A stretch of DNA of 43,707 bases from an uncultured Mycoplasmatota bacterium (GCA_946630615.1 CAMOYX010000001.1:1-43707), one strand, 5' to 3'; numbered from the stretch's first letter, positions 1-25,491 are shown. Notes: a model not told the origin generated them from the sequence alone. Numbers and translations are program-made.

Positions 1-1579
1 CAATTCTTGTAATAAGTCTTTTTGTAACTTTCTTTCCATCTGCATTATTTGGATCTAATAGTGATTTTGAATATTCTAATATCGACAAAACAACAGTTAT
101 TACAGGTACTGATAATTTAATAATTACGTATATTACGTCTAAAAATTTTTTTAAGGCTGTTTTTTCTCCATCAAAATAAAGTATTGAATCACAATGAACA
201 TCAACTTCGCTTGTAGCTAAGGGTGCAAAAATATTTTTATATTTATCAGATGTAGAACCATTCTCCATTTTTGAGTTGCTACTACTAGAAGAGTTAGAGT
301 TACTATATGTTTCGTCAGGCCATTTTTTGTATCTTAAAATAAATTTATAACTAGTATCTACTTTACCAAAGTAAACTTTTTTTATACTGCCTCCTGCGCA
401 TTCTACTGTTCTCATTTGTCCTGTTGAATCTTTACCTATATATATTACTACATGATTATAATTACCAGTTGAACTTGCTGAACCTTTTTTAACAATAATA
501 TCTCCTGGTTCAATGCTAGAAAAATCACTATTCTTTGAAACAATTTCAAAGTTTTCTGTGTTACTAATAAACCCTACTGCTGTATTTTCTCCAACTCCAT
601 ATCCTGAATGGTAAAACGCCCATGATACAAATGCAGAACAATCTAATTCTTTTGGGTTTGCGTTTAGTATTTCGCCATCTCCATGTCCTTTAGAATATTT
701 ATATGTTGTTTTACCATATAGGCTAGCTGCTTTTTTTATTAAATCAACTCTTCCTTTCGATATGTTTGAAGGCCATGATTTTGATACTTCTTCTAATATT
801 TTTTTAGCTTCTTCTGTAAGATTAGCATCATCAAATTTTACTTCTTCTTTAACTTGTGTATTAACTCCTGATGATGAATCTTTTTCTATTTCTTTAGTGT
901 AATTAATTATTCCATTTGCTATTAAAGTTGTATTTGATGCAAATGTTGTTCCTGTTAGGGACGATAAGTTATCTCCTACTATTAGAGAAGTAGCTGGTAT
1001 TTCAGAATATTTTATCTCATTATTCATTGCATCTCTTTCACCGGTTTGATTTTCTAAAGTTACCCCACTTGATTTTAGATTAGTTAAAATATCTGAACAT
1101 AGTTCTTTAGATTTATTATTAATTCCTGTTGTATTATTAGTTAATTGTGCATTTCCACTTTTTAAATATTTGCAAGCCATTCCTTTTGCTTCAGAACTAT
1201 TTTCATGTTCTATTCCTATATAGATATCTGCTGTATTATTTGCAATAACTATTCTAGCAATATCATCTAATCCTGCACTATTAAGCATTAATACTTGATA
1301 ACCTTCTGTTAATAGATTATCTCTTACTGCGTTTGCAAATGTTAAATTTGCTTGGGATGCTGTTGTTCCATTTGAAAGAGAAAATGCTTGTGTATATGGA
1401 TTAATGGCAATTGTAACATTGTTTTTTTCACTTGGAGTATAAAGAATAGCACTGCCAGATGTAGTAGTTGCTTTGCTTGCATTAGTCCATGTGGAGTCTA
1501 AGGTAATTTGTTTTGATGTCACTTCTGCGTTAACTGGTATAGCTATTAATAGTAATAAAATATAAAGTATTTTTTTCAT
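1..1579 (-). CDS. Secreted peptidoglycan hydrolase, 3'-truncated by the window edge. Architecture: signal peptide, amidase_3-like region, NlpC/P60 cysteine peptidase domain, Ser/Asn linker, C-terminal TM-hairpin module.
   Basis: Absent from the ORF track because it runs off the left edge. Manual translation of the minus strand from ATG 1579..1577 (RBS AAAGGAA upstream) gives about 526 uninterrupted codons starting MKKILYILLLLIAIPVNAEVTSKQ. ADIYIGIEHEN and EIPATSLIVGDNLSS resemble MurNAc-LAA. ELDCSAFVSWAFYHSGYG ... NHVVIYIG ... ECAGG is an NlpC/P60 Cys-His signature. A SNSNSSSSSNS linker follows, then HCDSILYFDGEKTALKKFLDVIYVIIKLSVPVITVVLSILEYSKS, which matches the module of the five upstream paralogs. 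Confidence 0.8.
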   Translation of the reverse strand, partial: MKKILYILLLLIAIPVNAEVTSKQITLDSTWTNASKATTTSGSAILYTPSEKNNVTIAINPYTQAFSLSNGTTASQANLTFANAVRDNLLTEGYQVLMLNSAGLDDIARIVIANNTADIYIGIEHENSSEAKGMACKYLKSGNAQLTNNTTGINNKSKELCSDILTNLKSSGVTLENQTGERDAMNNEIKYSEIPATSLIVGDNLSSLTGTTFASNTTLIANGIINYTKEIEKDSSSGVNTQVKEEVKFDDANLTEEAKKILEEVSKSWPSNISKGRVDLIKKAASLYGKTTYKYSKGHGDGEILNANPKELDCSAFVSWAFYHSGYGVGENTAVGFISNTENFEIVSKNSDFSSIEPGDIIVKKGSASSTGNYNHVVIYIGKDSTGQMRTVECAGGSIKKVYFGKVDTSYKFILRYKKWPDETYSNSNSSSSSNSKMENGSTSDKYKNIFAPLATSEVDVHCDSILYFDGEKTALKKFLDVIYVIIKLSVPVITVVLSILEYSKSLLDPNNADGKKVTKRLITRI

Positions 1580-1592
1580 TGCAAATTCCTTT

Positions 1593-2048
1593 CTATATAC
1601 ATGTCTCGATATTATATAAGCCAAATAAATTAAATATTAATTGTAGGATAAATGGAAGTAAGAAAATTAATAAGCCAATTATTAATCTTATAGTTACAGT
1701 TTTCATTACTGATTTAATTTCTTTTTCTGTACCATTAATGATATTTCTAGTAAAATCTAGAACTGTTATGATTATTATTATTACTGGAGTAATTACTTTT
1801 ATTATAGTAAATAGTATATCTATAAAATCTCCTAGTGGGGTTTTATCTCCGTCTTTGTTAATAAAAGCAGTACAGCTTTTATCTTCTTGGTTATTTTGTA
1901 GTGGAGTAATTAGATTTGGATAAGAATCTGTTTTAGAGCCGGATGACATGATTAGATCCATTCTTGTAATGTTATTAATTTCTAATGCATTAGTAGTTAA
2001 TGGCATTATTAGCAGAACTGCTATTATTAATAATTTTATATTTTTCAT
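1593..2048 (-). CDS. Paralog P1 of the Cys-bracketed TM-hairpin family (signal peptide plus variable ectodomain plus module)
   Basis: ORF track 1593..2069. Start moved to ATG 2048 (RBS GGAAGTGGAG). Signal peptide MKNIKLLIIAVLLIMPLTTNA. Module: KSC-x17-FIDILFTIIKVITPVIIIIITVLDF ... IRLIIGLLIFLLPF ... ETCI. Stop lies 13 nt from the hydrolase start. Confidence 0.7.
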   Translation of the reverse strand: MKNIKLLIIAVLLIMPLTTNALEINNITRMDLIMSSGSKTDSYPNLITPLQNNQEDKSCTAFINKDGDKTPLGDFIDILFTIIKVITPVIIIIITVLDFTRNIINGTEKEIKSVMKTVTIRLIIGLLIFLLPFILQLIFNLFGLYNIETCI

Positions 2049-2085
2049 AACTCCACTTCCTTTTAACATTACAATTATAACATAT

Positions 2086-2118
2086 ATAAAAAAAGAACTG
2101 AGTATTTTTCAGTTCTTT
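2086..2118 (-). terminator. Rho-independent terminator after paralog P2
   Basis: On the minus strand the stem AAGAACTGA / TCAGTTCTT is followed by a T-run. It lies directly after the P2 stop codon. Confidence 0.65.
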
Positions 2119-2517
2119 TTAGCTACATTTTGATACATCCCAGATGCAAGTAAAACATTCATTGTAATTACTTTGAACATCATTTTGGAAACCACTTACC
2201 CATCCAAATATAAAGTCTACAAATGCTGGTAAGAAAAAGATTATTACACCTGCAGCCAAACGTTTTGCAATAGTCATTGCAGCTGGCTTTAAGTCATCTG
2301 GTTTTGGCCCTACCATAGCTTTTGCAAAGTCTACAAATCCTAAGACTATTATTATTATTGGAATGAATATTTTAGCAACTTGTACAATGTGGCCAATGAA
2401 CTTAACTGTTGGACCAAGTCCAGCATTTTCACCTGTACAATATGCTGCATTAACATTATTTGCAAATACTATTATAGAAGTTAATATAAATGTCATTAAA
2501 TATTTTAGTTTTTTCAT
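2119..2517 (-). CDS. Paralog P2 of the Cys-bracketed TM-hairpin family
   Basis: Signal peptide MKKLKYLMTFILTSIIVFANNVNA. Module: AYC-x13-KFIGHIVQVAKIFIPIIIIVLGFVDFAKAMVG ... KRLAAGVIIFFLPAF ... NECFTCIWDVSKCS. RBS GGGAGG upstream. Confidence 0.75.
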   Translation of the reverse strand: MKKLKYLMTFILTSIIVFANNVNAAYCTGENAGLGPTVKFIGHIVQVAKIFIPIIIIVLGFVDFAKAMVGPKPDDLKPAAMTIAKRLAAGVIIFFLPAFVDFIFGWVSGFQNDVQSNYNECFTCIWDVSKCS

Positions 2518-2529
2518 GATAACCTCCCG

Positions 2530-3294
2530 TTAATTATTACTTGGTTCTTTAGCTGTAACTACGTTTTTTTCACCTGTGTTAGGTGTTGTAGTTGTACTGC
2601 TTGTGTTTGTTGTAGTAGTTGAGCTTGGATTAGTAGATGAAGATTTAACACATTGATCTACATTTAATACACATTTAGCACATGCTCTAGTGTATCCGCT
2701 CATTTGTGTCCAACCTGCTACTAAGTTAAATAATAAGTATACTATTGTAGGTATTAAGAATATTACAACACCTGATATAGCTCTGAATATTAATTTTCTT
2801 ATTGCACCTTTTACTTCTTTTTCTTCAGTTACCATAGCTTTTCCGAAGTCTACTATACCCATGATTATTAATATAATTGGGATTATAATTTTAAATATTT
2901 TTACTATTTGGCCAATGAATTGTAGAGGATCAGCAAGTTTATTACAGTATGCACTTTCTTCAGCTGTTATAGTGTTTGTAGTTGCTGCTCTTTGTGCTCT
3001 TTTTGCTTCTTTTTGTGCTTCTTCTTGTTGTTTATTTTTAAGATCATCTAGGTATTCTTGTTGTTTAGTATTATCGTAATAGTATGTAACTCCTTCTAGA
3101 GTTACTGAGCTTTGTCCGATTGTTCCGCCTCTTTGTATTATTTGTTCTTGTGTGTAAGTATTGCAATGTCTTTCAGACTTACATAATACAAATGAATAAT
3201 TATTATCTCTATATAGATAATTAGTTAAGGCATCTACTTTAATAGTAAAGCCTGCTAGTAAAATTGTTGCTATTATTAATAATTTCTTTTTCAT
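2530..3294 (-). CDS. Paralog P3 of the Cys-bracketed TM-hairpin family, with a larger N-terminal ectodomain and a Ser/Thr-rich tail
   Basis: ORF track 2530..3327. Start moved to ATG 3294 (RBS AAAGGA; signal peptide MKKKLLIIATILLAGF). Module: AYC-x9-QFIGQIVKIFKIIIPIILIIMGIVDFGKAMV ... FRAISGVVIFLIPT ... RACAKCVLNVDQC. Tail: SSSTNPSSTTTTNTSSTTTT. Confidence 0.75.
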   Translation of the reverse strand: MKKKLLIIATILLAGFTIKVDALTNYLYRDNNYSFVLCKSERHCNTYTQEQIIQRGGTIGQSSVTLEGVTYYYDNTKQQEYLDDLKNKQQEEAQKEAKRAQRAATTNTITAEESAYCNKLADPLQFIGQIVKIFKIIIPIILIIMGIVDFGKAMVTEEKEVKGAIRKLIFRAISGVVIFLIPTIVYLLFNLVAGWTQMSGYTRACAKCVLNVDQCVKSSSTNPSSTTTTNTSSTTTTPNTGEKNVVTAKEPSNN

Positions 3295-3307
3295 GTTAAC
3301 TATCCTT

Positions 3308-3793
3308 TCATTTTCCACAGTCTTCACTATAAGTTAGAATACATTTTGTACATTCAGAGAAGTTATTATTATTAAATGTATCTACCCATGTGAATACAAA
3401 TTGAATTAAACCTGGTAATAGGAAAATAAATACTCCAGCTATTACTCTTACAAACATTGATAAGGCCATTGTAGTTAGTTTTACATCTTTTATAGCTGTT
3501 ACTGCTTTATAAGCATCTATTAATCCAAATACTATTATTAGTATTGGAGCTACCCATCTAGCTATATTTAAAACCCATCCAACTATTTTAGTTACCATAA
3601 TGTAACCTTTTTCTTTACAAACATCACTTGTAGAACTAATAGAATTATCTATGTTATAGTCATATCCATCTGTTTTAGCTAACATAAATACTTTAGGTTC
3701 TTCATATATTTCATATGCTTTAGTATCTTTAATTGTTACTAAAGATAATGTAAGTAGAAGTATTATGATTGTAAGATATTTTAGTTTTTTCAT
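3308..3793 (-). CDS. Paralog P4 of the Cys-bracketed TM-hairpin family
   Basis: Signal peptide MKKLKYLTIIILLLTLSLV. The first 18 nt are identical to those of P2. Module: DVC-x11-KIVGWVLNIARWVAPILIIVFGLIDAYKAV ... VRVIAGVFIFLLPG ... SECTKCILTYSEDC. Confidence 0.75.
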   Translation of the reverse strand: MKKLKYLTIIILLLTLSLVTIKDTKAYEIYEEPKVFMLAKTDGYDYNIDNSISSTSDVCKEKGYIMVTKIVGWVLNIARWVAPILIIVFGLIDAYKAVTAIKDVKLTTMALSMFVRVIAGVFIFLLPGLIQFVFTWVDTFNNNNFSECTKCILTYSEDCGK

Positions 3794-3866
3794 ATTATCT
3801 CTTCCTTTAACATTCTAATTATAACAAATAAAACTAGGTTTTACACTAAATAATATCTATATGTAA

Positions 3867-3896
3867 ATAAAAAAGAATCTCTTTTTAGAGATTCTT
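3867..3896 (-). terminator. Rho-independent terminator after paralog P5
   Basis: Stem AAGAATCTCT / AGAGATTCTT with loop TTTT, followed on the minus strand by a T-run. It separates P5 from the P4-P3-P2 unit. Confidence 0.7.
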
Positions 3897-3903
3897 ATTT
3901 ATA

Positions 3904-4284
3904 TTAGTCAGTTCCCCAAGCTCTATCTGCAGCAGTTACGCATGAGTTTCCACCTGGATTAACAATACATTCTTTACATTCATCAAAGTCATTTTTAGCA
4001 GTTGTATTGAAATTAGATACTAGTCCCATGATTACACTTATTAATGTTGGGATTAAGAAGATTACAACACCAGCGATTACTCTGAATGCTAATTGTTTTA
4101 CTGCTTTCTTAATATCGTCTTCTTTTGATCCTACTACTGCTTTTCCTAAGTCAATAATTCCGTAAATAATTAAAATGATAGGAATTATAATTTTGAATGC
4201 TAATAAAATGTAACCAACGATTTGCCAAATATTTGCAGAACTATAGCAAATACCTGTATTACTTCCGATGTCAGATGTTAACAT
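3904..4284 (-). CDS. Paralog P5: minimal member of the family, with no signal peptide or ectodomain
   Basis: 126 aa. Sequence: GIC-x7-IWQIVGYILLAFKIIIPIILIIYGIIDLGKAVVG ... FRVIAGVVIFLIPT ... DECKECIVNPGGNSC. Closest by eye to P3. It has its own terminator. Confidence 0.75.
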   Translation of the reverse strand: MLTSDIGSNTGICYSSANIWQIVGYILLAFKIIIPIILIIYGIIDLGKAVVGSKEDDIKKAVKQLAFRVIAGVVIFLIPTLISVIMGLVSNFNTTAKNDFDECKECIVNPGGNSCVTAADRAWGTD

Positions 4285-4375
4285 ATTTATACCTCTTTCC
4301 TTTTTTATTATAGTTTAATTTTAAATTCAATATAGCATAAAGTCAAGAAAATAAGCTTGTAAATAAACGTGTATT

Positions 4376-5071
4376 TTACTTATTATTTTTTTTTCTTGTC
4401 TTTTTAGTTGTAGTTATATTTATTGTTTCTTCTTTATATTCTTTTTCGTTTTCTTTTTCTTCTTTTATTTGGGTATCTATGACACATGTATTGGATACCA
4501 AGTCATGTAAAGATAAGTTATCTCTTCTAATAAATAAGAATGCTATATCTATATATAGTAATATAGTTCCTGCATTTGTAATAACATTATTTATATTATA
4601 GAAGTTATCACTATTAAGAGTTAATATTGCTACTATTTGAGCTATTTCAAATAATACATTTTTAGCTACTAATACTCTTAAGAAATAATTACCTAGAGTT
4701 AGTTTTTTTCTCTTATCTTTTTCATTTACCATTTTTAAATTAAATAGCTTTTTACCTAGTGTTTCTCCATCCATTAGTAATGGGACTACGGTAAAGTATA
4801 GTAGTGTTACTATTAGAGTTACTATTTTTGTATGAATAGTGTATTTACTTATGTAATACATTATTGGTTTAATACTACTATCATAGTCATCTTTTGATAA
4901 TTCATTATTTACATACTGAGTAGTTATACTAACTAATTCATTATATTTTTCTTGGTAATCTACTTTATTTGGATTAATTATTGGTATTAATGATATTAAG
5001 AACGATACAATAAATACTAATATTAAATCAAATAGAAAAGCATTTATACGTCTAACTAATAATTTGTTCAT
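4376..5071 (-). CDS. RDD-family membrane protein
   Basis: ORF track 4376..5089. Start moved to ATG 5071 (RBS AAAGGAA). RDD hallmarks: RRINAFLFDLIL, DGETLGKKLFNLKMV and RRDNLSLHDLVSNTCVI. Several TM segments. Confidence 0.65.
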   Translation of the reverse strand: MNKLLVRRINAFLFDLILVFIVSFLISLIPIINPNKVDYQEKYNELVSITTQYVNNELSKDDYDSSIKPIMYYISKYTIHTKIVTLIVTLLYFTVVPLLMDGETLGKKLFNLKMVNEKDKRKKLTLGNYFLRVLVAKNVLFEIAQIVAILTLNSDNFYNINNVITNAGTILLYIDIAFLFIRRDNLSLHDLVSNTCVIDTQIKEEKENEKEYKEETINITTTKKTRKKNNK

Positions 5072-5110
5072 TTGTTCATTTCCTTTCATCTTAATAATTA
5101 TAGCATACTT

Positions 5111-5140
5111 ATAAAAAGAGTTGGTTATTAACCAACTCTT
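5111..5140 (-). terminator. Rho-independent terminator of serS
   Basis: Palindrome AAGAGTTGGTTA-T-TAACCAACTCTT overlaps the serS stop codon, with a T-run on the minus strand. Confidence 0.65.
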
Positions 5141-6428
5141 AGTTATTTTTAGGTACTATTAATTCTTTACCACCCATGTATGGTTGTAGAGCTTTTGGAA
5201 TCTTAATAGATCCATCTTCTTGATAGTTATTTTCAATTAATGCTATTAAGCCTCTTGGAGAAGCTACTACTGTGTTATTTAGTGTATTTACTAAGTAAGT
5301 ACCATTTTCACCTTTAGCACGAATTTGTAAACGTCTTGCTTGTGCATCACCTAGTGTAGAACATGAACCTACTTCAAAATATTTCTTTTGACGTGGTGAC
5401 CATGCTTCTACATCACATGATTTAACTTTTAAGTCTGCTAAGTCTCCTGAGCAACATTCTAAAGTTCTTACTGGTATATCCCAGTTTCTAAAGATTTCTA
5501 CAGTGTATTTCCACATCTTGTTATACCAATCCATTGCTTCTTCTTCTTTACATAGTACAATCATTTCTTCTTTTTCAAATTGATGTACACGATATAAACC
5601 TCTTTCTTCTATACCATGAGAACCTACTTCTTTTCTAAAGCATGGAGAGTAAGATGTTAGAGTTATTGGTAATTTTTCCTCTGGTATTATTTGATCTTTA
5701 AATCTACCAATCATAGAATGCTCTGAAGTACCAATTAAGTATAGATCTTCATTTTCTATTTTATACATCATATCATCCATTTCTTTAAATGACATTACAC
5801 CTGTAACTACATCGCTTCTAATCATGAATGGTGGAATTACATAAGTAAATCCTTTTTCAATCATATAGTCTCTTGCATAAGCAATCATAGCTTCATGAAG
5901 TCTTGCTATATCACCTAGTAAGTAATAGAAACCCATTCCTGAAGTTCTTCCTGCAGCTTCTTTATCAATACCACCTAATCTTTCAATAATATCAGCATGA
6001 TGTGGTATTTCGTATGATGGAACTACTGGTTCACCAAATTTTTCATTTTCAACATTCTTAGAGTCATCTTCTCCAATTGGTACAGATGCATCTATAATAT
6101 TTGGGATAACTAACATACGTTTTTTAATTTCTTCTTCTAGCTTAATTTCTTGTTCTTCTAGATTAGTTATTTCATCATTCATTTTTTTAACTTCTAGTTT
6201 AGCAGTTTCAGCTTCTTCTTTTTTACCGTCTTTCATTAAAGAACCTATAGCTTTAGAAGTTTCGTTTTTCTTAGCTCTTAGAGTATCAGCATTTACTCTT
6301 GCTTCTCTCCATTTAGTATCTAAGTCAAATACTTCATCTACTAATGGTAGTTTTTCATCTTGGAATTTCTTTTTAATATTTTCCTTTACTAAATCTTTAT
6401 TTTCTCTTATTAACTTAATATCTATCAT
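5139..6428 (-). CDS. serS: Seryl-tRNA synthetase
   Basis: MIDIKLIRENKDLV..., an N-terminal coiled-coil arm and a class II core. The track ORF begins at an upstream GTG inside the leader terminator. ATG 6428 has the RBS GAAAGGAAGGG. Confidence 0.93.
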   Translation of the reverse strand: MIDIKLIRENKDLVKENIKKKFQDEKLPLVDEVFDLDTKWREARVNADTLRAKKNETSKAIGSLMKDGKKEEAETAKLEVKKMNDEITNLEEQEIKLEEEIKKRMLVIPNIIDASVPIGEDDSKNVENEKFGEPVVPSYEIPHHADIIERLGGIDKEAAGRTSGMGFYYLLGDIARLHEAMIAYARDYMIEKGFTYVIPPFMIRSDVVTGVMSFKEMDDMMYKIENEDLYLIGTSEHSMIGRFKDQIIPEEKLPITLTSYSPCFRKEVGSHGIEERGLYRVHQFEKEEMIVLCKEEEAMDWYNKMWKYTVEIFRNWDIPVRTLECCSGDLADLKVKSCDVEAWSPRQKKYFEVGSCSTLGDAQARRLQIRAKGENGTYLVNTLNNTVVASPRGLIALIENNYQEDGSIKIPKALQPYMGGKELIVPKNN

Positions 6429-6430
6429 AT

Positions 6431-6660
6431 AAACCCTTCCTTTCGTTAATAAAATAAAAAAGGATGGTATATAAGGCGTCACGTAGACTATACCATCCTT
6501 TAGTTTAACTTTTATGTTTTTAACGGTAACACCGGGTGTTATTACACCTCTCAGAAAGTAGATTCACAAAGTATCTTTCGTTATTTACACCAACCATAAC
6601 GTCTCTTTATAAAGATAGTTTTGTTACTAGTCTTTCGTCAACAAGTTAGCTAGATTATAG
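6431..6660 (-). promoter_or_regulatory. T-box leader (Ser, candidate specifier UCU) with extended -10 promoter and intrinsic terminator
   Basis: All read on the minus strand.
- Promoter: TGCTATAAT.
- Stem I base: GACGAAAG...CTTTC.
- Specifier loop: 5' side ACUAGUA (AGUA motif), 3' side GAA-UCU-A. UCU is at 6562..6560.
- Distal motif: AGAGACGTTATGGTTGGTGTAAATAACG.
- T-box-like core: CCGGTGTTACCGTT.
- Terminator: AAAGGATGGTATA...TATACCATCCTTTTTT, just upstream of the serS RBS. Confidence 0.75.
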
Positions 6661-6689
6661 CACAAAAAAAAATCCTTTTAAAGGATTTT

Positions 6690-7520
6690 TTATTTTCTTC
6701 TTGGAAGTTCTATTTTCTTTGGTAATTCAATAGAAGGTTTAGATACTTCTACTGGTTTTACTTCTTCTTTTTTCTCTTCTCTAGATACATATACTGAAGA
6801 GAATACTTCTGGTCTTGGAACTTGTTTTACTGGTTCTTCTTTTCCTTCAGTAAAGATATTTAGAGGAGCTTCTTTTTCTTCAGTTAATACTGGATTAGTT
6901 AATTCTTCTTTAATTGGAGCAGCCACTTCTTTTGGAGTGTTTTTAGTTTGCTCTTCAGGAATATTAAAATCTTTAATTTCTTCTAGTTTAGGTTCTAAGT
7001 TAATAGATGGCATTGTGAATTCTTCTTTAATTAGAGGTTCTTCTTCGTTTGCTTTTGGTGCAGGTGATGCTTCAGTATTCTTTCCTAAGCTATCTAATTC
7101 TTTAGTAATTGCAGCAGCTAAAGCATCAAAATCAAATTCTTTAGTTTCTTCTATAGCTTCTTTAGAGTTAATAGGTTCTTCATTTATAGTTTTTTCTTCT
7201 GCTGGGATGAATGAATCTGGTTGTGGTTCAAATGAAGGTTCTACAAATGAAGCTACTTTATCTTCACTTATATTCATTTCAAATGGATTTGGAACGTCAT
7301 AAGTTTTAAGATTTTCTTCTTTTGGTTCTTCTGTTTCTGTTGTAAATACTGGTTTTGATTCGTCAGTATTCTTATCTTCTTTTACTTTTTTATCTTTAGG
7401 TTTAGAGTCTTTTGCTCCAAAGAATAATACCATTACAAATAAGATTACTAAAATTCCTATTACTATGAATAGGTATATTCCAAAATTTTGTATACTAAAT
7501 AGTTTATCTAAAAAATCCAT
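6690..7520 (-). CDS. Membrane-anchored Glu/Pro/Lys-rich low-complexity protein, function unknown
   Basis: N-terminal TM segment FGIYLFIVIGILVILFVMVLFFG followed by an acidic, proline-rich sequence. Flanked by hairpin terminators at about 6663-6690 and 7602-7629. Confidence 0.55.
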   Translation of the reverse strand: MDFLDKLFSIQNFGIYLFIVIGILVILFVMVLFFGAKDSKPKDKKVKEDKNTDESKPVFTTETEEPKEENLKTYDVPNPFEMNISEDKVASFVEPSFEPQPDSFIPAEEKTINEEPINSKEAIEETKEFDFDALAAAITKELDSLGKNTEASPAPKANEEEPLIKEEFTMPSINLEPKLEEIKDFNIPEEQTKNTPKEVAAPIKEELTNPVLTEEKEAPLNIFTEGKEEPVKQVPRPEVFSSVYVSREEKKEEVKPVEVSKPSIELPKKIELPRRK

Positions 7521-7623
7521 GTGTTACCACCCTTTTATTCCTTACTCTTTTATATTCTAACTAGATAATAGCATAATTAAAAGTGTTTAGTCAATAATAT
7601 TAAAAATAAGTAGAGCTTAAGCT

Positions 7624-7836
7624 CTACTTATTGTATTTATTCATTTGTGCCATGACTTGATTTATTTGCTTTTGAGAAGCAGGTCTTCCCATTTGAGCAA
7701 ACATTGCTTTAATCATGTTTTCGTTTATTGGTGGATTCTTTTGCATGTATTTTTTAGTTAATACACGTGATAGTAATACACCTATTACTAATCCAATTAC
7801 TAAACCAATAATTATTAATAATATATCATGTAACAT
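7624..7836 (-). CDS. yneF: UPF0154 (YneF-like) small membrane protein
   Basis: Single TM segment, then [40 protein letters not shown], which is characteristic of UPF0154. TAATG overlap with the rny stop codon. Confidence 0.8.
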
Positions 7837-9392
7837 TATTTAGCCTCCTCTTGTGCACGTGATTCACGAATAACTAAGATCTTGATTGTACCTGGATACT
7901 GCATCTCAGTTTCAATCTTTTTCTTCATGTCTCTTGCAATTTTAAAAGCTTGTGAATCATCTACTTCGTTAGGTTTAACCATAACACGTACTTCTCTACC
8001 GGCTTGCATTGCAAATGTTTTTTCAACACCTTCAAATGAGTTACCGATACTTTCTAATTCTTCTAATCTCTTAATATAGTTTTCTAAAGAATCATTTCTT
8101 GCACCAGGTCTTGCTGCAGATAAAGTATCTGCTATTTCAACTAATATTGAAATAATTGAAGTTTGAGCTGTATCACCATGGTGAGAAGCTATTGCATTTT
8201 GCACGATTGGATCTTCTTTATATTTCTTTGCTATAGATAAACCTAATTCTACATGTGAGCCTTCAACTTCAAAGTCTATGGCTTTACCTATATCGTGTAA
8301 TAAACCAGCTCTTTTAGCTAAGTTTATATTTTCACCAAGTTCACTTGCCATTAAGCCACATAATTGTCCAACTTCAATTGAATGTTTTAAGCAATTTTGA
8401 CCATAGCTTGTACGGAAATTTAATTTACCTATTAGGTGTACTAATTCTGGATCTACTTTAGATAGTCCAAGTTCATATAAAGCGTTATTACCTAATTCAG
8501 TAATTTTATTATCCATATCTTTTGTAACTCTATCGTATATTTCTTCTATACGTGCTGGATGGATTCTTCCATCTTTAATAAGAGTTTCAATAGTAATTCT
8601 TGCTATTTCTCTTCTTAATGGATCAAATGAAGATATTGAGATAGCTTCAGGAGTATCATCAATAATTAAATCTACACCTGTAACTGATTCGATAGTTCTT
8701 ATGTTTCTTCCTTCTCTACCGATTAATCTACCTTTCATTTCATCACTTGGTAATTGAATTGTTGAAACTGTTTGTTCTGTTGCAACATCATCAGAGTATC
8801 TTTCCATTGCTTCAACAATAATACTTTTAGCTTGTTCATTTGCTTTTAATCTAGCAATATGTTCTTGTTCTTTGATGTAGTCTGCTATTTCTTTGCTCAT
8901 TTCCTCTTCTGTCCTTTTCATAATTAGGTCGTGAGCTTTTTCTTTGGAGAATTTTGCTACTTCTTGTAAAGTAACCATTTCCTCTTTTAGTAGTTCGTCC
9001 ATCTTATTATTTTTTTCTTGTAATTCTTTTTGTTTAACTAATAAATTATTTTCTTTGTCATCTAGTGACATGTCTCTTTTTTGTAGAAGTTCATCTCTTT
9101 TATCAAGACTTGCTTCTCTTTCATGTAAGCGATTTTGTTCCGCAGCTATTTCTGCTTTTTTTTCTTTAACTTCTTTATCTGTTTCTTGTTTTATTCTATA
9201 ACTTTCTTCTTTTAGTTCAAGAAGTCTATCTCTTTTTTCTTTTTCAGCTTCACGTTTTGCTTTTTCTAAAAACTTATCAGCCTTTGATTTAGTGCTTTTA
9301 TGATAAATATAACTGAATAGGACAGATAAGGCTATACCTACCACTAAGCCAAGAATTAAAGTTAAGATGGGCTCATGATTCATTGGTCCCAT
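7836..9392 (-). CDS. rny: Ribonuclease Y
   Basis: N-terminal TM segment, a long coiled coil, a KH domain ([13 protein letters not shown]) and an HD domain (LLHDIGKA ... ASHHGD). RBS AAGGAG lies 6 nt before ATG 9392. Confidence 0.93.
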
Positions 9393-9513
9393 AATAAACT
9401 CCTTTTCTTTAATAGTTGTATTTAAAATAATACAATCTATGATTTTATTATAAGAAAGAATAATTTATTTTACAAGGAAAACAAGGAATATAAAAAGAAT
9501 GCTTAAAGCATTC

Positions 9514-10167
9514 TTAGTATAGTTTAGAAGCTATTGTCATTCCTGGTTTAACATTTAAATAATCAGATGCTTCTTTAGTTATTATTTCTTTTGAGGTTGC
9601 TTCTTTTGTAGCTGTTTTATATACATTTGCTACATCTAGATATATTCCATCTTCAATTAGAGTATTGTTATTTATAAATATATAGAATAATAATGTTACA
9701 TTATCTTCTATTTTTTCATAGCCAATTATAGTTTTAATATTACCATCATTTTTTTCTATATAATTAAATGATAAGTCATTTATTTCTTTAGTATTAATAA
9801 TATAATTATTATTTCTAATAGCTGTTTCTATGTTATTTAATGAAGTATTTGGTAATACGTTAAATGCATATATAGCATTGTAGGCATTGTCGTAATACAT
9901 ATTCTCTATACCTAGTAGATTAATTTCTTCATCTTCTGTAGTTTCTGATATTAATCTATTTGGTATTTCAATACTATAACCATTTATATTTGTAGTTAAT
10001 GTTTCTTTTACTACTTCTGTTTCTTTTGGTTCTTCTTTTATTTCTATTGGTTTAGCATCATTTATATCTTTTATTATAGTGAATGTTAATATAGTAATTA
10101 TTACTATAAGTATTAAAACTATTATATAAAATACTATCTTATTCTTCTTTTTTGATGTGTTGTTCAT
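9514..10167 (-). CDS. Membrane-anchored hypothetical protein
   Basis: N-terminal TM segment IVFYIIVLILIVIITILTFTII with no motif I recognise. Hairpin AAGAATGCTT/AAGCATTCTT at 9492-9515 follows it. Confidence 0.5.
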   Translation of the reverse strand: MNNTSKKKNKIVFYIIVLILIVIITILTFTIIKDINDAKPIEIKEEPKETEVVKETLTTNINGYSIEIPNRLISETTEDEEINLLGIENMYYDNAYNAIYAFNVLPNTSLNNIETAIRNNNYIINTKEINDLSFNYIEKNDGNIKTIIGYEKIEDNVTLLFYIFINNNTLIEDGIYLDVANVYKTATKEATSKEIITKEASDYLNVKPGMTIASKLY

Positions 10168-10246
10168 TTTTACTACCTTCTATTCTCATATATTAAAATA
10201 CTAACATATTTATTTATATAAAAAAAGAGATTATAAAATCTCTTTG

Positions 10247-11278
10247 TTAACTATTTTTTAATTCTTCTTTTTCTTCTTTAGTTGGTTTATCAAAGCCATA
10301 GTGTAATCTTACTTTATGTTCTAATTCTTCTTTTAAGTTTTTATCTGACTTAAGAATTGATTTAAAGTTTTCTCTACCTTGAGCAATCTTTTCACCCTTG
10401 TATGAGTACCATGCACCTGATTTTTCTACTATACCTAAGTCTGATGCCATATCTACTATTTCACCAGCATGAGATACACCTTCACCATACATAATATCAA
10501 CTACTGCAGTTTTAAATGGTGGAGCTACTTTATTCTTTACAATTTTAACATTTGTTTTGTTACCTATAACGTTTGCTCCATCTTTAATTTGTTCTCCTCT
10601 TCTTACATCAAGTCTAACTGACGAATAGAATTTTAGAGCACGTCCACCTGGAGTAGTTTCTGGATTTCCAAATAATACTCCAACTTTTTCTCTTAATTGG
10701 TTAATAAAAATTGCTGTAGTGTTTGTTTTATTAATAGTACCTGATAGTTTTCTTAGAGCTTGAGACATAAGTCTTGCTTGTAAGCCTACGTGAGAGTCTC
10801 CCATGTCTCCATCAATTTCTGCTTGAGGAACTAGTGCTGCGACAGAGTCTATAACAATAATATTTACTGCTTCACTTCTAACTAGTGCTTCACATATTGC
10901 TAGAGCTTGTTCACCAGTGTCTGGTTGAGATAATAATAACTCATTTATATTAACGCCTAAGTTTTTAGCATATACAGGATCTAGAGCGTGTTCTGCATCT
11001 ATGAATGCTGCTCTTCCTCCATTTTTTTGACATTCAGCAATTGCATGAAGTGCAAATGTAGTTTTACCAGATGATTCTGGTCCAAAGATTTCTATAATTC
11101 TTCCTTTTGGATAACCACCTACGCCTAAGGCAACATCAAGTGCTAGAGAACCTGATGAAGTAACTTCTACTTCCATGTGTGAGTTATCACCAAGTTTCAT
11201 TATGGCACCTTTACCAAATTGTTTTTCTATACTTTTTAAGACTTCTTCTAAAGCCGCATCGTTTTTATTTGTTTTCAT
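10247..11278 (-). CDS. recA: Recombinase RecA
   Basis: Walker [10 protein letters not shown], and sequence typical of RecA throughout. Terminator AGAGATT/AATCTCT plus T-run at 10220-10243. Confidence 0.97.
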
Positions 11279-11313
11279 GAATAACCTCCCAGTTAATGTG
11301 TTTCACAGTTCTC

Positions 11314-11342
11314 ATTTTATATTAGTAAATATTGGATGTCAA
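11314..11342 (-). promoter_or_regulatory. Putative sigma-A promoter of recA
   Basis: Minus strand: TTGACA (11342..11337), 17-nt spacer, TAAAAT (11319..11314). Confidence 0.5.
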
Positions 11343-11353
11343 GAATTAATATC

Positions 11354-11365
11354 AAACATTTGTTT
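11354..11365 (-). promoter_or_regulatory. Possible degenerate LexA (Cheo-type) box upstream of recA
   Basis: AAAC-N4-GTTT (plus strand aaacatttgttt) against the GAAC-N4-GTTC consensus, one mismatch per half-site. It lies just upstream of the -35. Confidence 0.25.
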
Positions 11366-11483
11366 TGTATGTTTTTATATTCAGATTTATATAAATTTTC
11401 TATAGCAAAAGTGTGTTTATTTGAATCTTTAATTTTACAAATTTAAGGTAATCTATAAAAACTATTAAATAAAAAAAATTGGA

Positions 11484-12062
11484 TTAATCCAATTTTCTAT
11501 ATTTAAAGTAATGACTAATTGCACTTATCAAGTACGTTACTACACCTATATCAATTAGTAGATCTGCAACATATATTCCAAATGCTTCAAATGGTAAGTT
11601 ATAGAATAACATTAAGGCTGATCCTAAGAATATTAATAAAATAGATAACTTATCTAGTTTATTTGGTAGAAGTTTTTCTCTTTTATCTAAATATAATGGT
11701 CTTAGAGTCATTATTAATATTTCTCTAGTTATTAATATAATTGGTACAATTACATTTATAAATCCGTAGAATGATAATGTAGTTATTGTTATTAATATTA
11801 ATAGACTAGTTGCAAAGTTTGAAAGACTTCTTGTTTTTAATTCGTAGTTTCTTCTTGAAATACTATTTCCTAGGTAGTATAGAACTATTTCTATTACATA
11901 TAGAAATCCTGCAATTAAAAATTTTACATCTACTAGTATTTTTCCCATTACTAAGATTTCTTTAGTATTTATTCCTATTTCATTAAAAGGGAATGATATA
12001 ACTAATAGAATTATTATAGTTAAGATTATTCTTGTTACTGATAATTTATTTGCTAGATTCAT
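11484..12062 (-). CDS. PgsA-like CDP-alcohol phosphatidyltransferase homolog lacking the catalytic Asp motif
   Basis: Start at ATG 12062 (RBS GGAGG). MNLANKLSVTRIIL, ITREILIMTLR and FYNLPFE align with PgsA. The region where DxxDGxxAR...G...D...D should sit reads IEIVLYYLGNSISRRNYELKTRSLSNFATSLL. It occupies the position conserved for pgsA, between the rodZ-like gene and recA. Confidence 0.7.
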   Translation of the reverse strand: MNLANKLSVTRIILTIIILLVISFPFNEIGINTKEILVMGKILVDVKFLIAGFLYVIEIVLYYLGNSISRRNYELKTRSLSNFATSLLILITITTLSFYGFINVIVPIILITREILIMTLRPLYLDKREKLLPNKLDKLSILLIFLGSALMLFYNLPFEAFGIYVADLLIDIGVVTYLISAISHYFKYRKLD

Positions 12063-12063
12063 T

Positions 12064-12504: not shown

Positions 12505-12529
12505 ATAAACACTTACTTTCTTATTAAAA

Positions 12530-25404: not shown

Positions 25405-25491
25405 ATTATCACCTATCTTATTTAACCTTAGTAAGGTTATCAAAAATAATCGTTAATGTCAAATTGCATAAAATTAAAAAGATGACAATTT

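What the first reader, a model, noticed from the sequence alone, without database searches (positions are those of the whole stretch)
1..4284. Five tandem paralogs sharing a cysteine-bracketed TM-hairpin module, plus a peptidoglycan hydrolase carrying the same module: candidate uncharacterised envelope or pilin-like system
**Seen in the sequence.** Six consecutive minus-strand genes share one module.
- A Cys lies 7-19 residues before TM1.
- TM1 reads (F/I)(I/V)G.(I/V)...(K/R).(I/V).P(I/V)(I/L)(I/L)I..G(I/F/L)(I/V)D.
- A Lys-rich loop follows (xKAxxG....K), presumably cytoplasmic by the positive-inside rule.
- TM2 reads R(L/V/A)(I/A)(A/S/I)G(V/L).IF(L/F)(L/I)P.
- An extracellular tail carries ECxxC (ECFTCI, ACAKCV, ECTKCI, ECKECI; ETCI in P1).

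**Architecture.**
- Four members add a signal peptide and unrelated N-terminal ectodomains of variable length.
- P2 and P4 share an identical 18-nt 5' end, which indicates duplication.
- The last gene is a secreted amidase-like/NlpC-P60 hydrolase whose C-terminus is the same hairpin.

**Inference.** Both termini face outside, so the flanking cysteines could form disulfides across the hairpin. The topology and size recall VirB2/TrbC-type or Gram-positive T4SS pilin-like proteins, and conjugation systems of Gram-positives also encode NlpC/P60 hydrolases. No ATPase, coupling protein or relaxase is visible in this window, and the flanking genes (RDD, serS) are core genes. I could not place the family in a characterised system.
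Basis: partly seen in the sequence, partly recalled or inferred. Interest (0 to 1): 0.85.

Follow-up and report, generated by a model that had tools for sequence, protein, structure and literature searches.

The report
Pilin gene array of a chromosomal T4SS
The six genes are a family of VirB2-like pilin proteins, some fused to cell-wall-cutting enzymes, belonging to a type IV secretion machine that lies just beyond the window edge; the machine lacks the DNA-transfer genes and is conserved in at least 80 species of uncultured gut Bacilli, a design so far described only in the unrelated Patescibacteria.

Summary
A profile built only from P5 orthologues in other genomes hits exactly the six genes among 256 six-frame ORFs of the window (E 6e-5 to 4e-33).

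The module is a VirB2-like T4SS pilin (Pfam PF18895). Window copies score just below threshold; 60 of 72 orthologues match.

A 99.8%-identical longer contig continues past the left edge of the window. It carries:
- a seventh module protein with a C39-like peptidase domain;
- a VirB6-like protein;
- a VirB3-like protein;
- a VirB4 ATPase split into two genes.

This order, pilin array then VirB6, VirB3, VirB4N and VirB4C, recurs in 69 loci from gut Bacilli metagenome-assembled genomes (MAGs). VirB4 is 70-78% identical across them. Flanks are housekeeping genes, with no relaxase, coupling protein or integrase.

Further features:
- Extracytoplasmic cysteines are even in number in 197 of 214 modules.
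- The small P5-type gene comes first and is followed by a terminator in 26 of 32 cases.
- Ectodomains diverge fast.

Best reading: a domesticated, non-conjugative T4SS with a pilin array. Its closest known analogue is the Patescibacteria T4SS. A December 2025 review calls that system the only Gram-positive-type T4SS with VirB2 pilins. Its function is inferred, not shown.

The parts
3904..4284 (-). P5: 126-aa minimal VirB2-like pilin (class A). Proposed major subunit. No classical signal peptide. Four conserved Cys (C13, C103, C106, C115).
   Evidence: PF18895 at 22.5 bits. 138 orthologues at 44-65% identity, of which 60 of 72 match PF18895. AF2 model has pLDDT 83.9 and a helical hairpin at residues 17-51 and 55-90. 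Invariant columns are listed.
4318..4346 (-). Promoter-like site upstream of P5 (TTGACT, 17 nt, TAAAAT).
   Evidence: Consensus scan; sequence. This is a consensus match only; the number of such sites in the region is not above the shuffled expectation.
3873..3896 (-). Intrinsic-terminator-like hairpin plus T-run directly after P5.
   Evidence: A comparable hairpin follows 26 of 32 P5 orthologues in other species. The rate is 47 of 231 after other pilin genes and 0-2 of 70-80 after VirB6, VirB3 and VirB4N.
3308..3793 (-). P4: 161-aa class A pilin-module protein with a signal peptide and a short ectodomain.
   Evidence: A1 profile E = 5e-26; BLASTP against paralogues.
2530..3294 (-). P3: 254-aa class A pilin-module protein. 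It has a signal peptide, an ectodomain of about 100 aa with Cys and Tyr motifs, and a Ser/Thr-rich C-terminal tail.
   Evidence: PF18895 at 24.6 bits. A1 profile E = 3.7e-33. Its ectodomain family occurs in 16 proteins of related loci.
2119..2517 (-). P2: 132-aa class A pilin with a signal peptide and almost no ectodomain.
   Evidence: A1 profile E = 1.1e-27.
2090..2120 (-). Terminator-like hairpin after P2, with a 12-bp stem.
1593..2048 (-). P1: 151-aa class B module protein. Its tail is FGLYN...C, with one Cys upstream and one downstream.
   Evidence: A1 profile E = 1.7e-15. It is closest to the modules of the hydrolase and the C39-like protein, at 37-41% identity.
1..1579 (-). Secreted two-domain peptidoglycan hydrolase (Amidase_3-like plus NlpC/P60) fused to a class B pilin module. 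It is truncated by the window edge; the full protein is 561 aa in L001.
   Evidence: Pfam NLPC_P60 at 28.8 bits and Amidase_3 at 24.7 bits. Full sequence. A1 profile E = 6e-5 on the truncated module.

Best explanation
The six genes are the pilin-gene array of a chromosomally fixed, non-conjugative type IV secretion system. The system is of the monoderm (MPF-FATA) lineage. Its motor genes lie just beyond the left edge of the window.

**Shown.**
- The shared hairpin is a VirB2-like pilin module of Pfam PF18895.
- The array is always followed, on the same strand, by a VirB6-like polytopic protein, a VirB3-like protein and a VirB4 ATPase.
- That ATPase is split into an N-domain gene (TrsD/TraC-like) and an ATPase gene.
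- The set is conserved in at least 80 species-level genomes of uncultured gut Bacilli, between housekeeping genes.
- No relaxase, coupling protein or integrase lies in the cluster or its flanks.

**Inferred mechanism.**
1. Each module inserts in the membrane with both ends outside and the basic loop inside.
2. The N-proximal Cys and the C-terminal Cys residues clasp the two ends together, by disulfide or possibly by a metal site. This would be functionally like the head-to-tail cyclisation of T-pilin and RP4 TrbC. That comparison rests on my own knowledge of those pilins.
3. VirB4, VirB3 and VirB6 extract the pilins from the membrane and stack them into a filament or stalk that crosses the peptidoglycan.
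4. P5 is the major subunit. It is the most conserved copy, always comes first, and forms its own transcription unit ending in a terminator.
5. The class A copies with signal peptides and fast-evolving, Cys-rich ectodomains are variant subunits. They display those domains on the outside for contact with other cells or surfaces.
6. The class B copies lie next to VirB6. They tether wall-cutting enzymes (amidase/NlpC-P60, C39-like peptidase) to the machine. This does the VirB1 job of opening the cell's own wall, and possibly a target's wall.
7. Without a relaxase or coupling protein, the machine most likely serves contact-dependent exchange or uptake with neighbouring cells rather than plasmid or ICE (integrative conjugative element) transfer. 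The same has been proposed for the Patescibacteria T4SS.
For: **Module is a pilin.**
- PF18895 hits: P3 24.6 bits, P5 22.5 bits, C39-like fusion 19.3 bits.
- 60 of 72 P5 orthologues match PF18895, the best at 6.7e-8. Four also match T4SS_CagC.
- Weak NCBIfam hits go to Mycoplasma ICE pilin-like and transmembrane proteins.
- The AF2 model is a helical hairpin with pLDDT 83.9.

**T4SS context.**
- L001 is 99.8% identical to the window over 12.5 kb.
- The 596-aa protein matches VirB4 models: NF045975 at E = 7e-100 and CD1110 at 1.5e-54.
- The 187-aa protein matches positions 92-276 of the same VirB4 model (E = 6e-15) and PF26593.
- The 105-aa protein gives weak TcpE/PrgI hits.
- The 729-aa protein gives weak TrbL/VirB6 hits.

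**Conservation.**
- 112 relatives were found in one-genome-per-species GTDB contigs. The best 80 are all 70-78% identical.
- All 69 loci with enough flank have the same gene order.
- Median identity to the L001 proteins: VirB4C 74%, VirB4N 61%, VirB3 59%, P5 46%. Ectodomains are mostly undetectable.

**Not mobile.**
- Flanks are serS/RDD and a MiaB-like gene.
- In other genomes they are pyk with pgsA-like and FtsK genes, or pyk with Fic and DnaB/DnaI genes.
- The rest of the window is housekeeping.
- The best plasmid VirB4 hit is 29% identical. P5 has no hit in 72,556 plasmids.
- The nearest named VirB4 relatives (about 33% identity) sit in real ICEs or plasmids that do carry a recombinase, a relaxase or ArdC.

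**Cys clasp.**
- Cys patterns 1+3 or 1+1 dominate.
- The count is even in 197 of 214 modules.
- The upstream Cys lies at a fixed 22-24 or 29-31 residues before the TM1 Pro.

**P5 as the major subunit.**
- It comes first in the array, with order P5, class A, class B, VirB6.
- A terminator follows it in 26 of 32 orthologues.

**Surface exposure.** All five amino-acid differences between the window and L001 (which L003 shares over the stretch it covers) fall in the ectodomains of the hydrolase, P1 and P3; a fourth contig, L002, adds one change in the P1 signal peptide, one in the P3 ectodomain and one in RNase Y.
Against: - No pilus or filament has been seen. Gram-positive T4SSs are generally held not to make pili.
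- The window's own copies score below the PF18895 gathering cut-off.
- Foldseek and a profile search against the PDB gave nothing significant, so there is no structural confirmation.
- The VirB6 and VirB3 assignments rest on weak hits plus position and topology.
- No VirB8-like component was found.
- Absence of a coupling protein or relaxase is shown only for the cluster, 10-kb flanks and this 43.7-kb window, not for whole genomes.
- Disulfide formation in an anaerobic gut Firmicute needs an oxidase, and I did not find one. A Cys4 metal site would fit class A equally well.
- Enzyme-pilin fusions occur only in a subset of species.
- Strain-level SNP numbers are small.
Confidence: 0.7

Rival explanations
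1. The hairpins are not filament subunits. They are VirB2-derived membrane anchors, or short stalk and channel-lining subunits. They dock variable ectodomains and wall hydrolases onto the VirB6/VirB3/VirB4 translocon, and no extended pilus is made.
For: - Characterised Gram-positive T4SSs lack pili.
- Class B modules carry enzymes and always sit next to VirB6.
- Ectodomains of 100-700 aa on most copies would be bulky for a tightly packed VirB2 filament.
- In L032 the module lies in the middle of an 819-aa protein, with Big_2 and YkuD domains after it.
Against: - The small P5-type copy without an ectodomain is the most conserved and has its own terminator. This is the layout expected of an abundant polymerising subunit.
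- The analogous Patescibacteria arrays are essential and are interpreted as pilins.
Confidence: 0.25
2. The machine is a DNA-uptake system, like H. pylori ComB or the archaeal Ced system. The pilin filament captures DNA from the environment or from neighbouring cells.
For: - Relaxase and coupling protein are absent.
- In two relatives (L007, L009) the P5 orthologue lies directly downstream of a ComG-like pseudopilin or T2SS-E ATPase operon.
- ComB and Ced are T4SS relatives that import DNA; this rests on my own knowledge and.
Against: - The adjacency to ComG-like genes is not conserved; in other genomes pyk or serS/RDD is upstream.
- Nothing DNA-binding lies in the cluster.
- In Saccharibacteria the essential role of the T4SS was separable from competence.
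Confidence: 0.15
3. It is part of an integrative conjugative element or its decaying remnant, and the pilin array is conjugation-related.
For: - VirB4 belongs to the MPF-FATA conjugation lineage.
- Its nearest named relatives are ICE or plasmid genes of Thomasclavelia, Mycoplasmatota and Erysipelotrichaceae, with the same VirB6, VirB3, VirB4N, VirB4C order.
Against: - There is no relaxase, coupling protein, recombinase, primase or SSB in the cluster or its flanks.
- Flanks are housekeeping genes and differ between genomes.
- All genes are intact, and VirB4 is 70-78% identical across at least 80 species. Decay would not preserve that.
- P5 has no plasmid homologue.
- The small hairpin proteins of the related ICEs are not detectably related to this pilin family.
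Confidence: 0.06
4. The hairpin proteins are unrelated to secretion, for example holins, bacteriocin-immunity proteins or generic membrane anchors. They happen to sit near a T4SS.
For: Two-TM hairpins are common. Spurious weak hits to GPCR and Frizzled families show that composition drives part of the scores.
Against: - The array and VirB6-VirB4 are strictly co-linear on the same strand in 69 loci.
- PF18895 is the top family in 60 of 72 orthologues.
- The class order within the array is conserved.
Confidence: 0.03

Closest known systems
Patescibacteria (CPR) T4SS, e.g. Ca. Southlakia epibionticum SEML1_0006-0019 (Wang et al. 2023, PMC10633639; Quinonero-Coronel et al. 2025, PMC12102498)
   Same: - Both are chromosomal.
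- Both have a monoderm MPF-FATA-type VirB4.
- Both have a separate gene for the VirB4 N-domain (TrsD or TraC-like).
- Both have VirB3- and VirB6-like proteins.
- Both have arrays of 2-11 sequence-divergent VirB2-like pilins detected with PF18895.
- Neither has a relaxase.
- In both, wall hydrolases are encoded in the cluster.
   Different: - The host is a walled Firmicute lineage. Evidence: RNase P class B, PBP1, sortase, SpoIVA in a relative, and records labelled Bacilli, Tenericutes or Erysipelotrichaceae.
- The nearest named VirB4 relatives are Erysipelotrichales and Mycoplasmatota elements, not Patescibacteria. No joint phylogeny was made.
- I did not find the following features described in the papers I read on the Patescibacteria system: an ordered array (P5, class A, class B), enzyme-pilin fusions and a conserved Cys bracket.
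- Essentiality is unknown here.
Conjugative T4SS modules of Erysipelotrichales and other Firmicutes ICEs or plasmids (Thomasclavelia ramosa ICE, locus L092; MobL/ArdC element, locus L093)
   Same: - The order is identical: small hairpin protein, VirB6-like, VirB3-like, VirB4N, VirB4C, followed by a two-domain wall hydrolase.
- VirB4C is about 30-33% identical.
   Different: - Those elements carry adhesins (SpaA/TED), SSB, a primase, a serine recombinase or a MobL relaxase, and ArdC. Here none is present.
- They have one small hairpin protein with no Cys bracket and no detectable similarity to this family (hhalign probability 0.3%; no PF18895 hit). Here there are 5-7 PF18895 copies.
- Their hydrolase is a separate gene downstream of VirB4. 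Here it is fused to a pilin module upstream of VirB6.
Mycoplasma ICE (MICE) transfer genes: Mbov_0395 pilin-like, Mbov_0396 TM protein, Mbov_0397 VirB4 (NCBIfam NF045849, NF045889, NF045975)
   Same: - The best NCBIfam model for the ATPase is NF045975. The 105-, 187- and 596-aa genes together tile that 894-position model.
- The order pilin-like, TM protein, VirB4 is the same.
- There are weak hits of the modules to NF045849, NF045889 and NF045848.
   Different: - All scores are far below the curated cut-offs (335 against 590 bits; 13.7 against 40 bits).
- VirB4 is split here.
- The hosts are walled.
- No MICE transposase or TraG is present.
VirB2/TrbC/TraA conjugative pilins of Gram-negative T4SSs (Pfam PF04956; T-pilus, RP4, F)
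   Same: - Both are small proteins with two hydrophobic helices joined by a short basic loop, with both ends outside.
- Both are encoded with VirB3, VirB4 and VirB6.
- The N- and C-terminal ends are held together, by cyclisation in T-pilin and TrbC (my own knowledge) and by the proposed Cys clasp here.
   Different: - There is no PF04956 hit.
- There is no outer-membrane complex and no VirB5.
- Many copies carry large ectodomains or enzymes.
- The clasp would use cysteines rather than a peptide bond.
- The host is a monoderm.

Membership tests
VirB2-like T4SS pilin, Pfam PF18895 (T4SS_pilin) | Match to the family HMM at or above the gathering score (26.6 bits). | tested here: inconclusive
   Window copies score just below the cut-off: P3 24.6, P5 22.5 and the C39-like fusion 19.3 bits. 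60 of 72 P5 orthologues match at E <= 0.01, the best at 6.7e-8. Several orthologues carry a precomputed PF18895 assignment. The family as a whole qualifies; the individual window proteins are borderline.
VirB2-like T4SS pilin, Pfam PF18895 (T4SS_pilin) | Two hydrophobic helices joined by a short basic loop, with the termini on the outer side. | tested here: met
   The hydropathy scan finds two TM segments per module. AF2 gives helices at 17-51 and 55-90 with pLDDT 83.9. The Lys/Arg-rich loop is visible in the alignment. The orientation is inferred from the signal peptides and the positive-inside rule.
VirB2-like T4SS pilin, Pfam PF18895 (T4SS_pilin) | Encoded in a T4SS locus with VirB3, VirB4 and VirB6. 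| tested here: met
   Seen in L001 and in 69 other loci, on the same strand and directly upstream of the VirB6-like gene.
VirB2-like T4SS pilin, Pfam PF18895 (T4SS_pilin) | Polymerises into an extracellular filament. | not testable with these tools
The PDB searches were uninformative.
Conjugative MPF-FATA T4SS (ICE or plasmid) | VirB4-family ATPase. | tested here: met
   NF045975 at E = 7e-100, NF045971 at 1.5e-54, TIGR00929 at 1.5e-22, and P-loop_TraG, AAA_10 and DUF87 above their cut-offs.
Conjugative MPF-FATA T4SS (ICE or plasmid) | Coupling protein (VirD4/TcpA) and relaxase linked to the system. | tested here: not met
   Neither is present in the cluster, in 10-kb flanks in three genomes, or in the 43.7-kb window. 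The FtsK in L090 has alpha and gamma domains, so it is the chromosomal FtsK. Whole genomes were not scanned.
Conjugative MPF-FATA T4SS (ICE or plasmid) | Hallmarks of a mobile element: integrase or recombinase, variable presence, plasmid relatives. | tested here: not met
   Flanks are housekeeping genes. VirB4 is 70-78% identical in at least 80 species. The best plasmid hit is 29% identical, and P5 has no plasmid hit.
Patescibacteria-type non-conjugative T4SS | Chromosomal cluster with a VirB2-like pilin array, a separate TrsD-like gene, VirB3, VirB6 and VirB4, and no relaxase. | tested here: met
   compared with the descriptions read.
Patescibacteria-type non-conjugative T4SS | VirB4 falls in the monophyletic Patescibacteria clade, and the host is a Patescibacterium. 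| tested here: not met
   The host is a Bacillus-class Firmicute. The nearest named VirB4 relatives are Erysipelotrichales and Mycoplasmatota. No joint tree with Patescibacteria sequences was built, so the clade question itself stays open.
Patescibacteria-type non-conjugative T4SS | Required for growth on a host cell. | not testable with these tools
   The organisms are uncultured.
Mycoplasma ICE transfer proteins (NCBIfam NF045849, NF045889, NF045975) | Scores above the curated equivalog cut-offs. | tested here: not met
   335 against 590 bits, 13.7 against 40 bits, and 17.2 against 70 bits.
VirB1-like T4SS wall hydrolase (CwlT/PrgK/TcpG type) | Secreted peptidoglycan hydrolase domains encoded in the T4SS cluster. 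| tested here: met
   NlpC/P60 is above its cut-off and Amidase_3 just below. The signal peptide is visible. The fusion to a pilin module is a departure from the known members.

The most novel reading that the evidence does not exclude
A whole lineage of uncultured gut Bacilli, found in human, mouse, rabbit, chicken and ruminant samples, carries a vertically inherited, relaxase-less T4SS that builds a VirB2-type pilus.
- This would be the first such case in true Firmicutes. It parallels the essential Patescibacteria system and implies a contact-dependent lifestyle on other cells, such as episymbiosis, predation, or uptake of nutrients or DNA.
- Its pilins are closed by a cysteine clasp. That would be a new solution to the end-joining achieved by cyclisation in T-pilin and TrbC.
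- Some pilins are natural fusions that carry wall-degrading enzymes or variable Cys-rich adhesin-like domains on the filament.
Probability: 0.3. Interest if true: 0.8.

Novelty: new variant of a known kind. Interest (0 to 1): 0.62.

Why it matters
- The December 2025 T4SS review (PMC12857230) states that VirB2 pilins are absent from Gram-positive T4SSs except in Patescibacteria. It calls the Patescibacteria system unique among monoderms in its potential to build a pilus.
- The cluster described here would be a second, independent case, in a walled Firmicute lineage common in animal and human guts.
- Public annotation names its parts only 'DUF87 domain-containing protein' or 'hypothetical protein'.
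- It offers a comparison point for three questions:
  - where the Patescibacteria pilin arrays came from;
  - how a VirB2-type filament could cross a thick wall;
  - what a T4SS does without DNA-processing genes.
- It would also suggest that these poorly understood gut Bacilli depend on physical contact with other cells.
- The enzyme-pilin fusions and the conserved Cys bracket are concrete features that experiments could test.

Tried and rejected
- **Foldseek of the P5 AF2 model against the PDB.** The best E-value was 2.1. Helical hairpins are not discriminated, so the result is uninformative.
- **Profile of P5 orthologues against PDB sequences.** Only chance hits to opsin and Shaker transmembrane regions appeared.
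- **Naming the ~600-aa VirB4 relatives.** No organism names were on record, so I could not tell whether Patescibacteria proteins are among the nearest relatives.
- **Two context look-ups with window ORFs starting at TTG or GTG.** Both failed because the called genes start elsewhere. I annotated the window with Pfam instead.
- **Homology between this pilin family and the small hairpin proteins of related ICEs.** None was detectable.
- **GTDB order of 'Candidatus Ventrenecus'.** I found nothing, so the order (RF39, RFN20 or Erysipelotrichales-related) is not established.
- **Literature searches for this system in RF39 or RFN20.** I found no report.
- **Rejected readings.** Holin or bacteriocin-type proteins, and an active ICE; reasons are given under the rival explanations.
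- **Pilin counts over 'complete' arrays.** The 10-kb flank limit biases this towards short arrays, so I do not use it as a distribution.

Full report
**1. What is in the window.**

Positions 1-4284 carry six consecutive minus-strand genes:
- P5: 3904-4284, 126 aa.
- P4: 3308-3793, 161 aa.
- P3: 2530-3294, 254 aa.
- P2: 2119-2517, 132 aa.
- P1: 1593-2048, 151 aa.
- A hydrolase that starts at 1579 and runs off the left end of the window.

Each gene has a Shine-Dalgarno-like sequence.
- Pairwise BLASTP aligns the hairpin regions of all pairs at 31-90 bits.
- A profile built only from P5 orthologues of other genomes (alignment A1) was run against all 256 six-frame ORF segments of the window. It hits only these six: P3 3.7e-33, P2 1.1e-27, P4 5e-26, P1 1.7e-15, and the truncated hydrolase 6e-5.

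Two sub-classes emerge.
- Class A (P5, P4, P3, P2) has a tail with CxxC plus one further Cys.
- Class B (P1, the hydrolase and one further gene) has a tail reading FGLY(D/N)...C.

The 18 identical nucleotides at the starts of P2 and P4 exist. They encode only MKKLKY.

**2. What the module is.**

- Pfam places P3 (24.6 bits) and P5 (22.5 bits) just under the gathering score of PF18895, T4SS_pilin, which is 26.6 bits.
- P5 has 138 relatives at E <= 0.001 in the 5.8-billion-protein collection; the 120 listed are 44-65% identical to it. A few of them carry a precomputed PF18895 assignment.
- Of 72 aligned orthologues, 60 match PF18895 (best E = 6.7e-8) and four match T4SS_CagC.
- NCBIfam gives weak hits to Mycoplasma ICE (integrative conjugative element) proteins, including the 'pilin-like' Mbov_0395 family.
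- An AlphaFold2 model of P5 (pLDDT 83.9) is a long helical hairpin at residues 17-51 and 55-90, followed by two short helices.
- Searches against solved structures were uninformative.

**3. The missing partners lie just outside the window.**

A 59-kb contig (L001) is 99.8% identical to window positions 1-12517. It continues leftwards with these genes:
- The full 561-aa hydrolase.
- A 414-aa protein with a Peptidase_C39_2-like domain (23.4 bits) and the same class B hairpin.
- A 729-aa polytopic protein with weak TrbL/VirB6 and MMCAP2_0566 hits.
- A 105-aa two-TM protein with weak TcpE/PrgI (VirB3-like) hits.
- A 187-aa protein that matches PF26593 (TraC-like) and positions 92-276 of the VirB4 model NF045975.
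- A 596-aa ATPase that matches positions 294-893 of the same model (E = 7e-100), as well as CD1110-type VirB4, TraC and VirB4_CagE models.
- A 309-aa protein that is not conserved elsewhere.
- A radical-SAM MiaB-like housekeeping gene.

So the window holds the pilin and hydrolase end of a T4SS cluster of about 11.6 kb, and that cluster has a split VirB4.

**4. Conservation.**

- A scan of one genome per GTDB species with the ATPase found 112 relatives. The best 80 are all 70-78% identical.
- Nearly all come from metagenome-assembled genomes (MAGs) labelled uncultured Bacilli, Tenericutes or Erysipelotrichaceae. The sources are rabbit, human (Hadza, UMGS), mouse, chicken ('Candidatus Ventrenecus') and ruminant guts.
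- In all 69 loci with enough flank the order is the same: pilin-module genes (2 to at least 9, 112-830 aa), then VirB6-like, VirB3-like, VirB4N and VirB4C.
- The split VirB4 is therefore not a pseudogene.
- Median identity to the L001 proteins is 74% for VirB4C, 61% for VirB4N, 59% for VirB3, 46% for P5 and 34% for the membrane part of VirB6.
- The other pilins match only over the module. Most ectodomains have no detectable counterpart.
- In the roughly 40 closest species the array is ordered: P5-type first, then class A, then class B next to VirB6.

**5. The cluster is not a mobile element.**

- Flanks are housekeeping genes and differ between genomes:
  - serS/RDD and a MiaB-like gene here;
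  - pyruvate kinase, a pgsA-like gene and FtsK in L090;
  - pyruvate kinase, Fic and DnaB/DnaI in Ventrenecus.
- The rest of the window is housekeeping: UvrB, RecU, PBP1, DnaD, Nth, the CCA-adding enzyme, S4, TrxB, IF3, L20, CysS, a P-type ATPase, sortase, RecA, RNase Y, SerS and RNase P RNA class B. The exceptions are a broken IS110 and a DUF285 surface protein.
- No relaxase, coupling protein or integrase was seen anywhere.
- Against 72,556 plasmids, the best VirB4 hit is 29% identical and P5 has no hit.
- At 50% clustering, the family has one representative at 64% identity and a sister family at 41%, which is also chromosomal. The next hits, at about 33%, are named Thomasclavelia ramosa, Coprobacillus, Solobacterium, Erysipelotrichaceae and a Mycoplasmatota plasmid.
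- Two of these relatives were inspected and are true conjugative elements.
  - One carries SpaA/sortase, SSB, a primase and a serine recombinase.
  - The other carries a TED adhesin, ArdC and a MobL relaxase.
  - Both have the same VirB6, VirB3, VirB4N, VirB4C order.
  - Their single small hairpin protein is not detectably related to this pilin family.
- The simplest history is domestication of such a module, with loss of the DNA-processing genes and gain or expansion of PF18895 pilins.

**6. Features that bear on mechanism.**

Cysteines were examined in 214 modules from about 80 species.
- The commonest patterns, written as upstream, core and tail counts, are (1,0,3) in 102 modules, (1,0,1) in 40, (1,1,3) in 19 and (1,0,7) in 17.
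- The extracytoplasmic count is even in 197 of 214.
- The upstream Cys lies a fixed 22-24 or 29-31 residues before the TM1 proline.
- In P5 orthologues C13, C103 and C106 are invariant and C115 nearly so.
- This fits a clasp between the N- and C-terminal outer segments, by disulfides or, for class A, possibly by a Cys4 metal site. It would be functionally comparable to the cyclisation of T-pilin and TrbC, a comparison that rests on my own knowledge of those pilins.

Transcription signals also set P5 apart.
- P5 has a promoter-like site and is followed by a hairpin with a T-run.
- Such a terminator follows 26 of 32 P5 orthologues. The rates elsewhere are 47 of 231 for other pilin genes, 0-2 of 70-80 for VirB6, VirB3 and VirB4N, and 41 of 77 for VirB4C, the operon end.
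- That pattern suits an abundant major subunit.

Ectodomains of the other copies fall into 46 similarity clusters.
- Most are Cys-rich and have no Pfam match.
- The recognisable ones all act on the cell wall: Amidase_3 with NlpC/P60 (14 loci), C39_2-like (12), Amidase_3-like (11), and Big_2 with a YkuD L,D-transpeptidase domain placed after the module (4).

Between the window strain and L001, 17 of 26 SNPs lie in the first 4.3 kb. All five amino-acid changes lie in the ectodomains of the hydrolase, P1 and P3, and none in the housekeeping genes. L003 shows the same differences over the stretch it covers. L002 differs at only five sites, among them one change in the P1 signal peptide, one in the P3 ectodomain and one in RNase Y. 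The numbers are small.

**7. Comparison with what is known.**

- The closest described system is the Patescibacteria T4SS. It has:
  - a chromosomal location;
  - an MPF-FATA-like VirB4;
  - a separate TrsD gene homologous to the VirB4 N-terminus;
  - PrgI/VirB3 and VirB6 components;
  - arrays of 2-11 divergent VirB2-like pilins found with PF18895;
  - usually no relaxase;
  - an essential role in the epibiotic growth of Ca. Southlakia epibionticum.
- A December 2025 review states that VirB2 is not found in Gram-positive T4SSs apart from Patescibacteria. It calls the Patescibacteria system unique among monoderms in its potential to build pili.
- The present cluster matches that architecture point by point, but it sits in walled, in part spore-forming, Firmicutes.
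- I found no paper in the held library that describes it.
- Public annotation reads 'DUF87 domain-containing protein' or 'hypothetical protein'.
- I file it as a new variant of a known kind. It is not a member of the Patescibacteria clade, because the host and the nearest named relatives differ and no tree was made. It is not a conjugative MPF-FATA system, because the coupling protein and relaxase were sought and not found.

**8. Verdict.**

- What the machine transports, and whether it makes a true pilus, remain inferred.
- Confidence:
  - about 0.9 that this is a VirB2-like pilin array of a chromosomal T4SS;
  - about 0.7 for the fuller mechanistic picture;
  - about 0.3 for the most novel reading, a pilus-forming, contact-dependent lifestyle system with clasped pilins and enzyme-bearing subunits.

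Noticed in passing
L001 12680-13924 (just beyond the window's left end): A seventh module protein of 414 aa. It has a signal peptide, a Peptidase_C39_2-like domain (23.4 bits against a cut-off of 24) and a class B pilin hairpin. What a papain-like peptidase does on a pilin anchor is unknown; it could cleave the wall or process pilins.
   Followed up: partly
L007 5262-9912 and L009 1-4445: In two related genomes a ComG-like pseudopilin or T2SS-E ATPase operon (N_methyl and T2SSE hits, then small proteins of 79-340 aa) lies directly upstream of the P5 orthologue. The adjacency is not conserved elsewhere.
   Followed up: partly
L091 15697-18031; also L042, L044 and L047 downstream of VirB4C: 'Candidatus Ventrenecus' genomes carry a second array of three class A pilin-module genes (about 396, 275 and 104 aa). 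It lies a few kb downstream of VirB4, after the Fic and DnaB/DnaI genes.
   Followed up: partly
L032 341-2830: An 819-aa protein has the pilin module in the middle, followed by a Big_2 domain and a YkuD-like L,D-transpeptidase domain. Enzymes can therefore be attached at the C-terminal side of the hairpin as well.
   Followed up: partly
window 899-969: Ten of the 26 differences between the window and L001/L003 cluster within 70 bp of the hydrolase ectodomain. This looks like a short recombination tract.
   Followed up: no
window 22219-23412 (+): An IS110-family transposase is split into two ORFs: DEDD_Tnp_IS110 (127 aa) and Transposase_20 (167 aa). It is probably a frameshifted or decayed copy. 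Next to it lies a 603-aa DUF285/LRR surface protein at 23632-25443 (-).
   Followed up: no
window 26218-26757 (-): Ribosomal protein L20 carries a C-terminal extension of about 60 aa that matches the Rho_N domain (E = 1.3e-9). A Rho_N-like segment also appears in the C-terminal region of the T. ramosa VirB6-like protein (L092; E = 2.8e-4, 21.2 bits against a gathering score of 24.9).
   Followed up: no
window 29563-31515 (-), 36749-37543 (-), 9514-10167 (-), 6690-7520 (-): Several sizeable ORFs (650, 264, 217 and 276 aa) have no Pfam match at E <= 1e-4 (1e-5 for the 650-aa ORF). The 276-aa protein is an acidic, low-complexity protein with an N-terminal TM segment.
   Followed up: no
window 37653-39287 (+): A sortase domain sits at the C-terminal end of an unusually long 544-aa protein. 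Field et al. (PMC10868615) report that srtA/B sortases are missing from the orders RFN20 and ML615J-28. A sortase here argues weakly for an RF39- or Erysipelotrichales-like placement.
   Followed up: no
L023, L048, L054, L085 (genome contigs records): Contigs carrying this Bacilli-type cluster are filed in bins named Muribaculaceae, Methanobrevibacter and Phocaeicola vulgatus. This is probably binning contamination in the public MAGs.
   Followed up: no
L050 and L077 (same MAG, Lapin-011__bin94): Two separate VirB4 loci occur in one MAG. L077 shows a pilin-module gene directly before VirB3, with no VirB6-like hit. This could be a second system or mixed strains.
   Followed up: no
window 5116-5140 and 3873-3896: Two perfect palindromic hairpins score as terminators. 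The one at 3873-3896, after P5, scores on both strands. The one at 5116-5140, between serS and RDD, scores on the + strand only.
   Followed up: no
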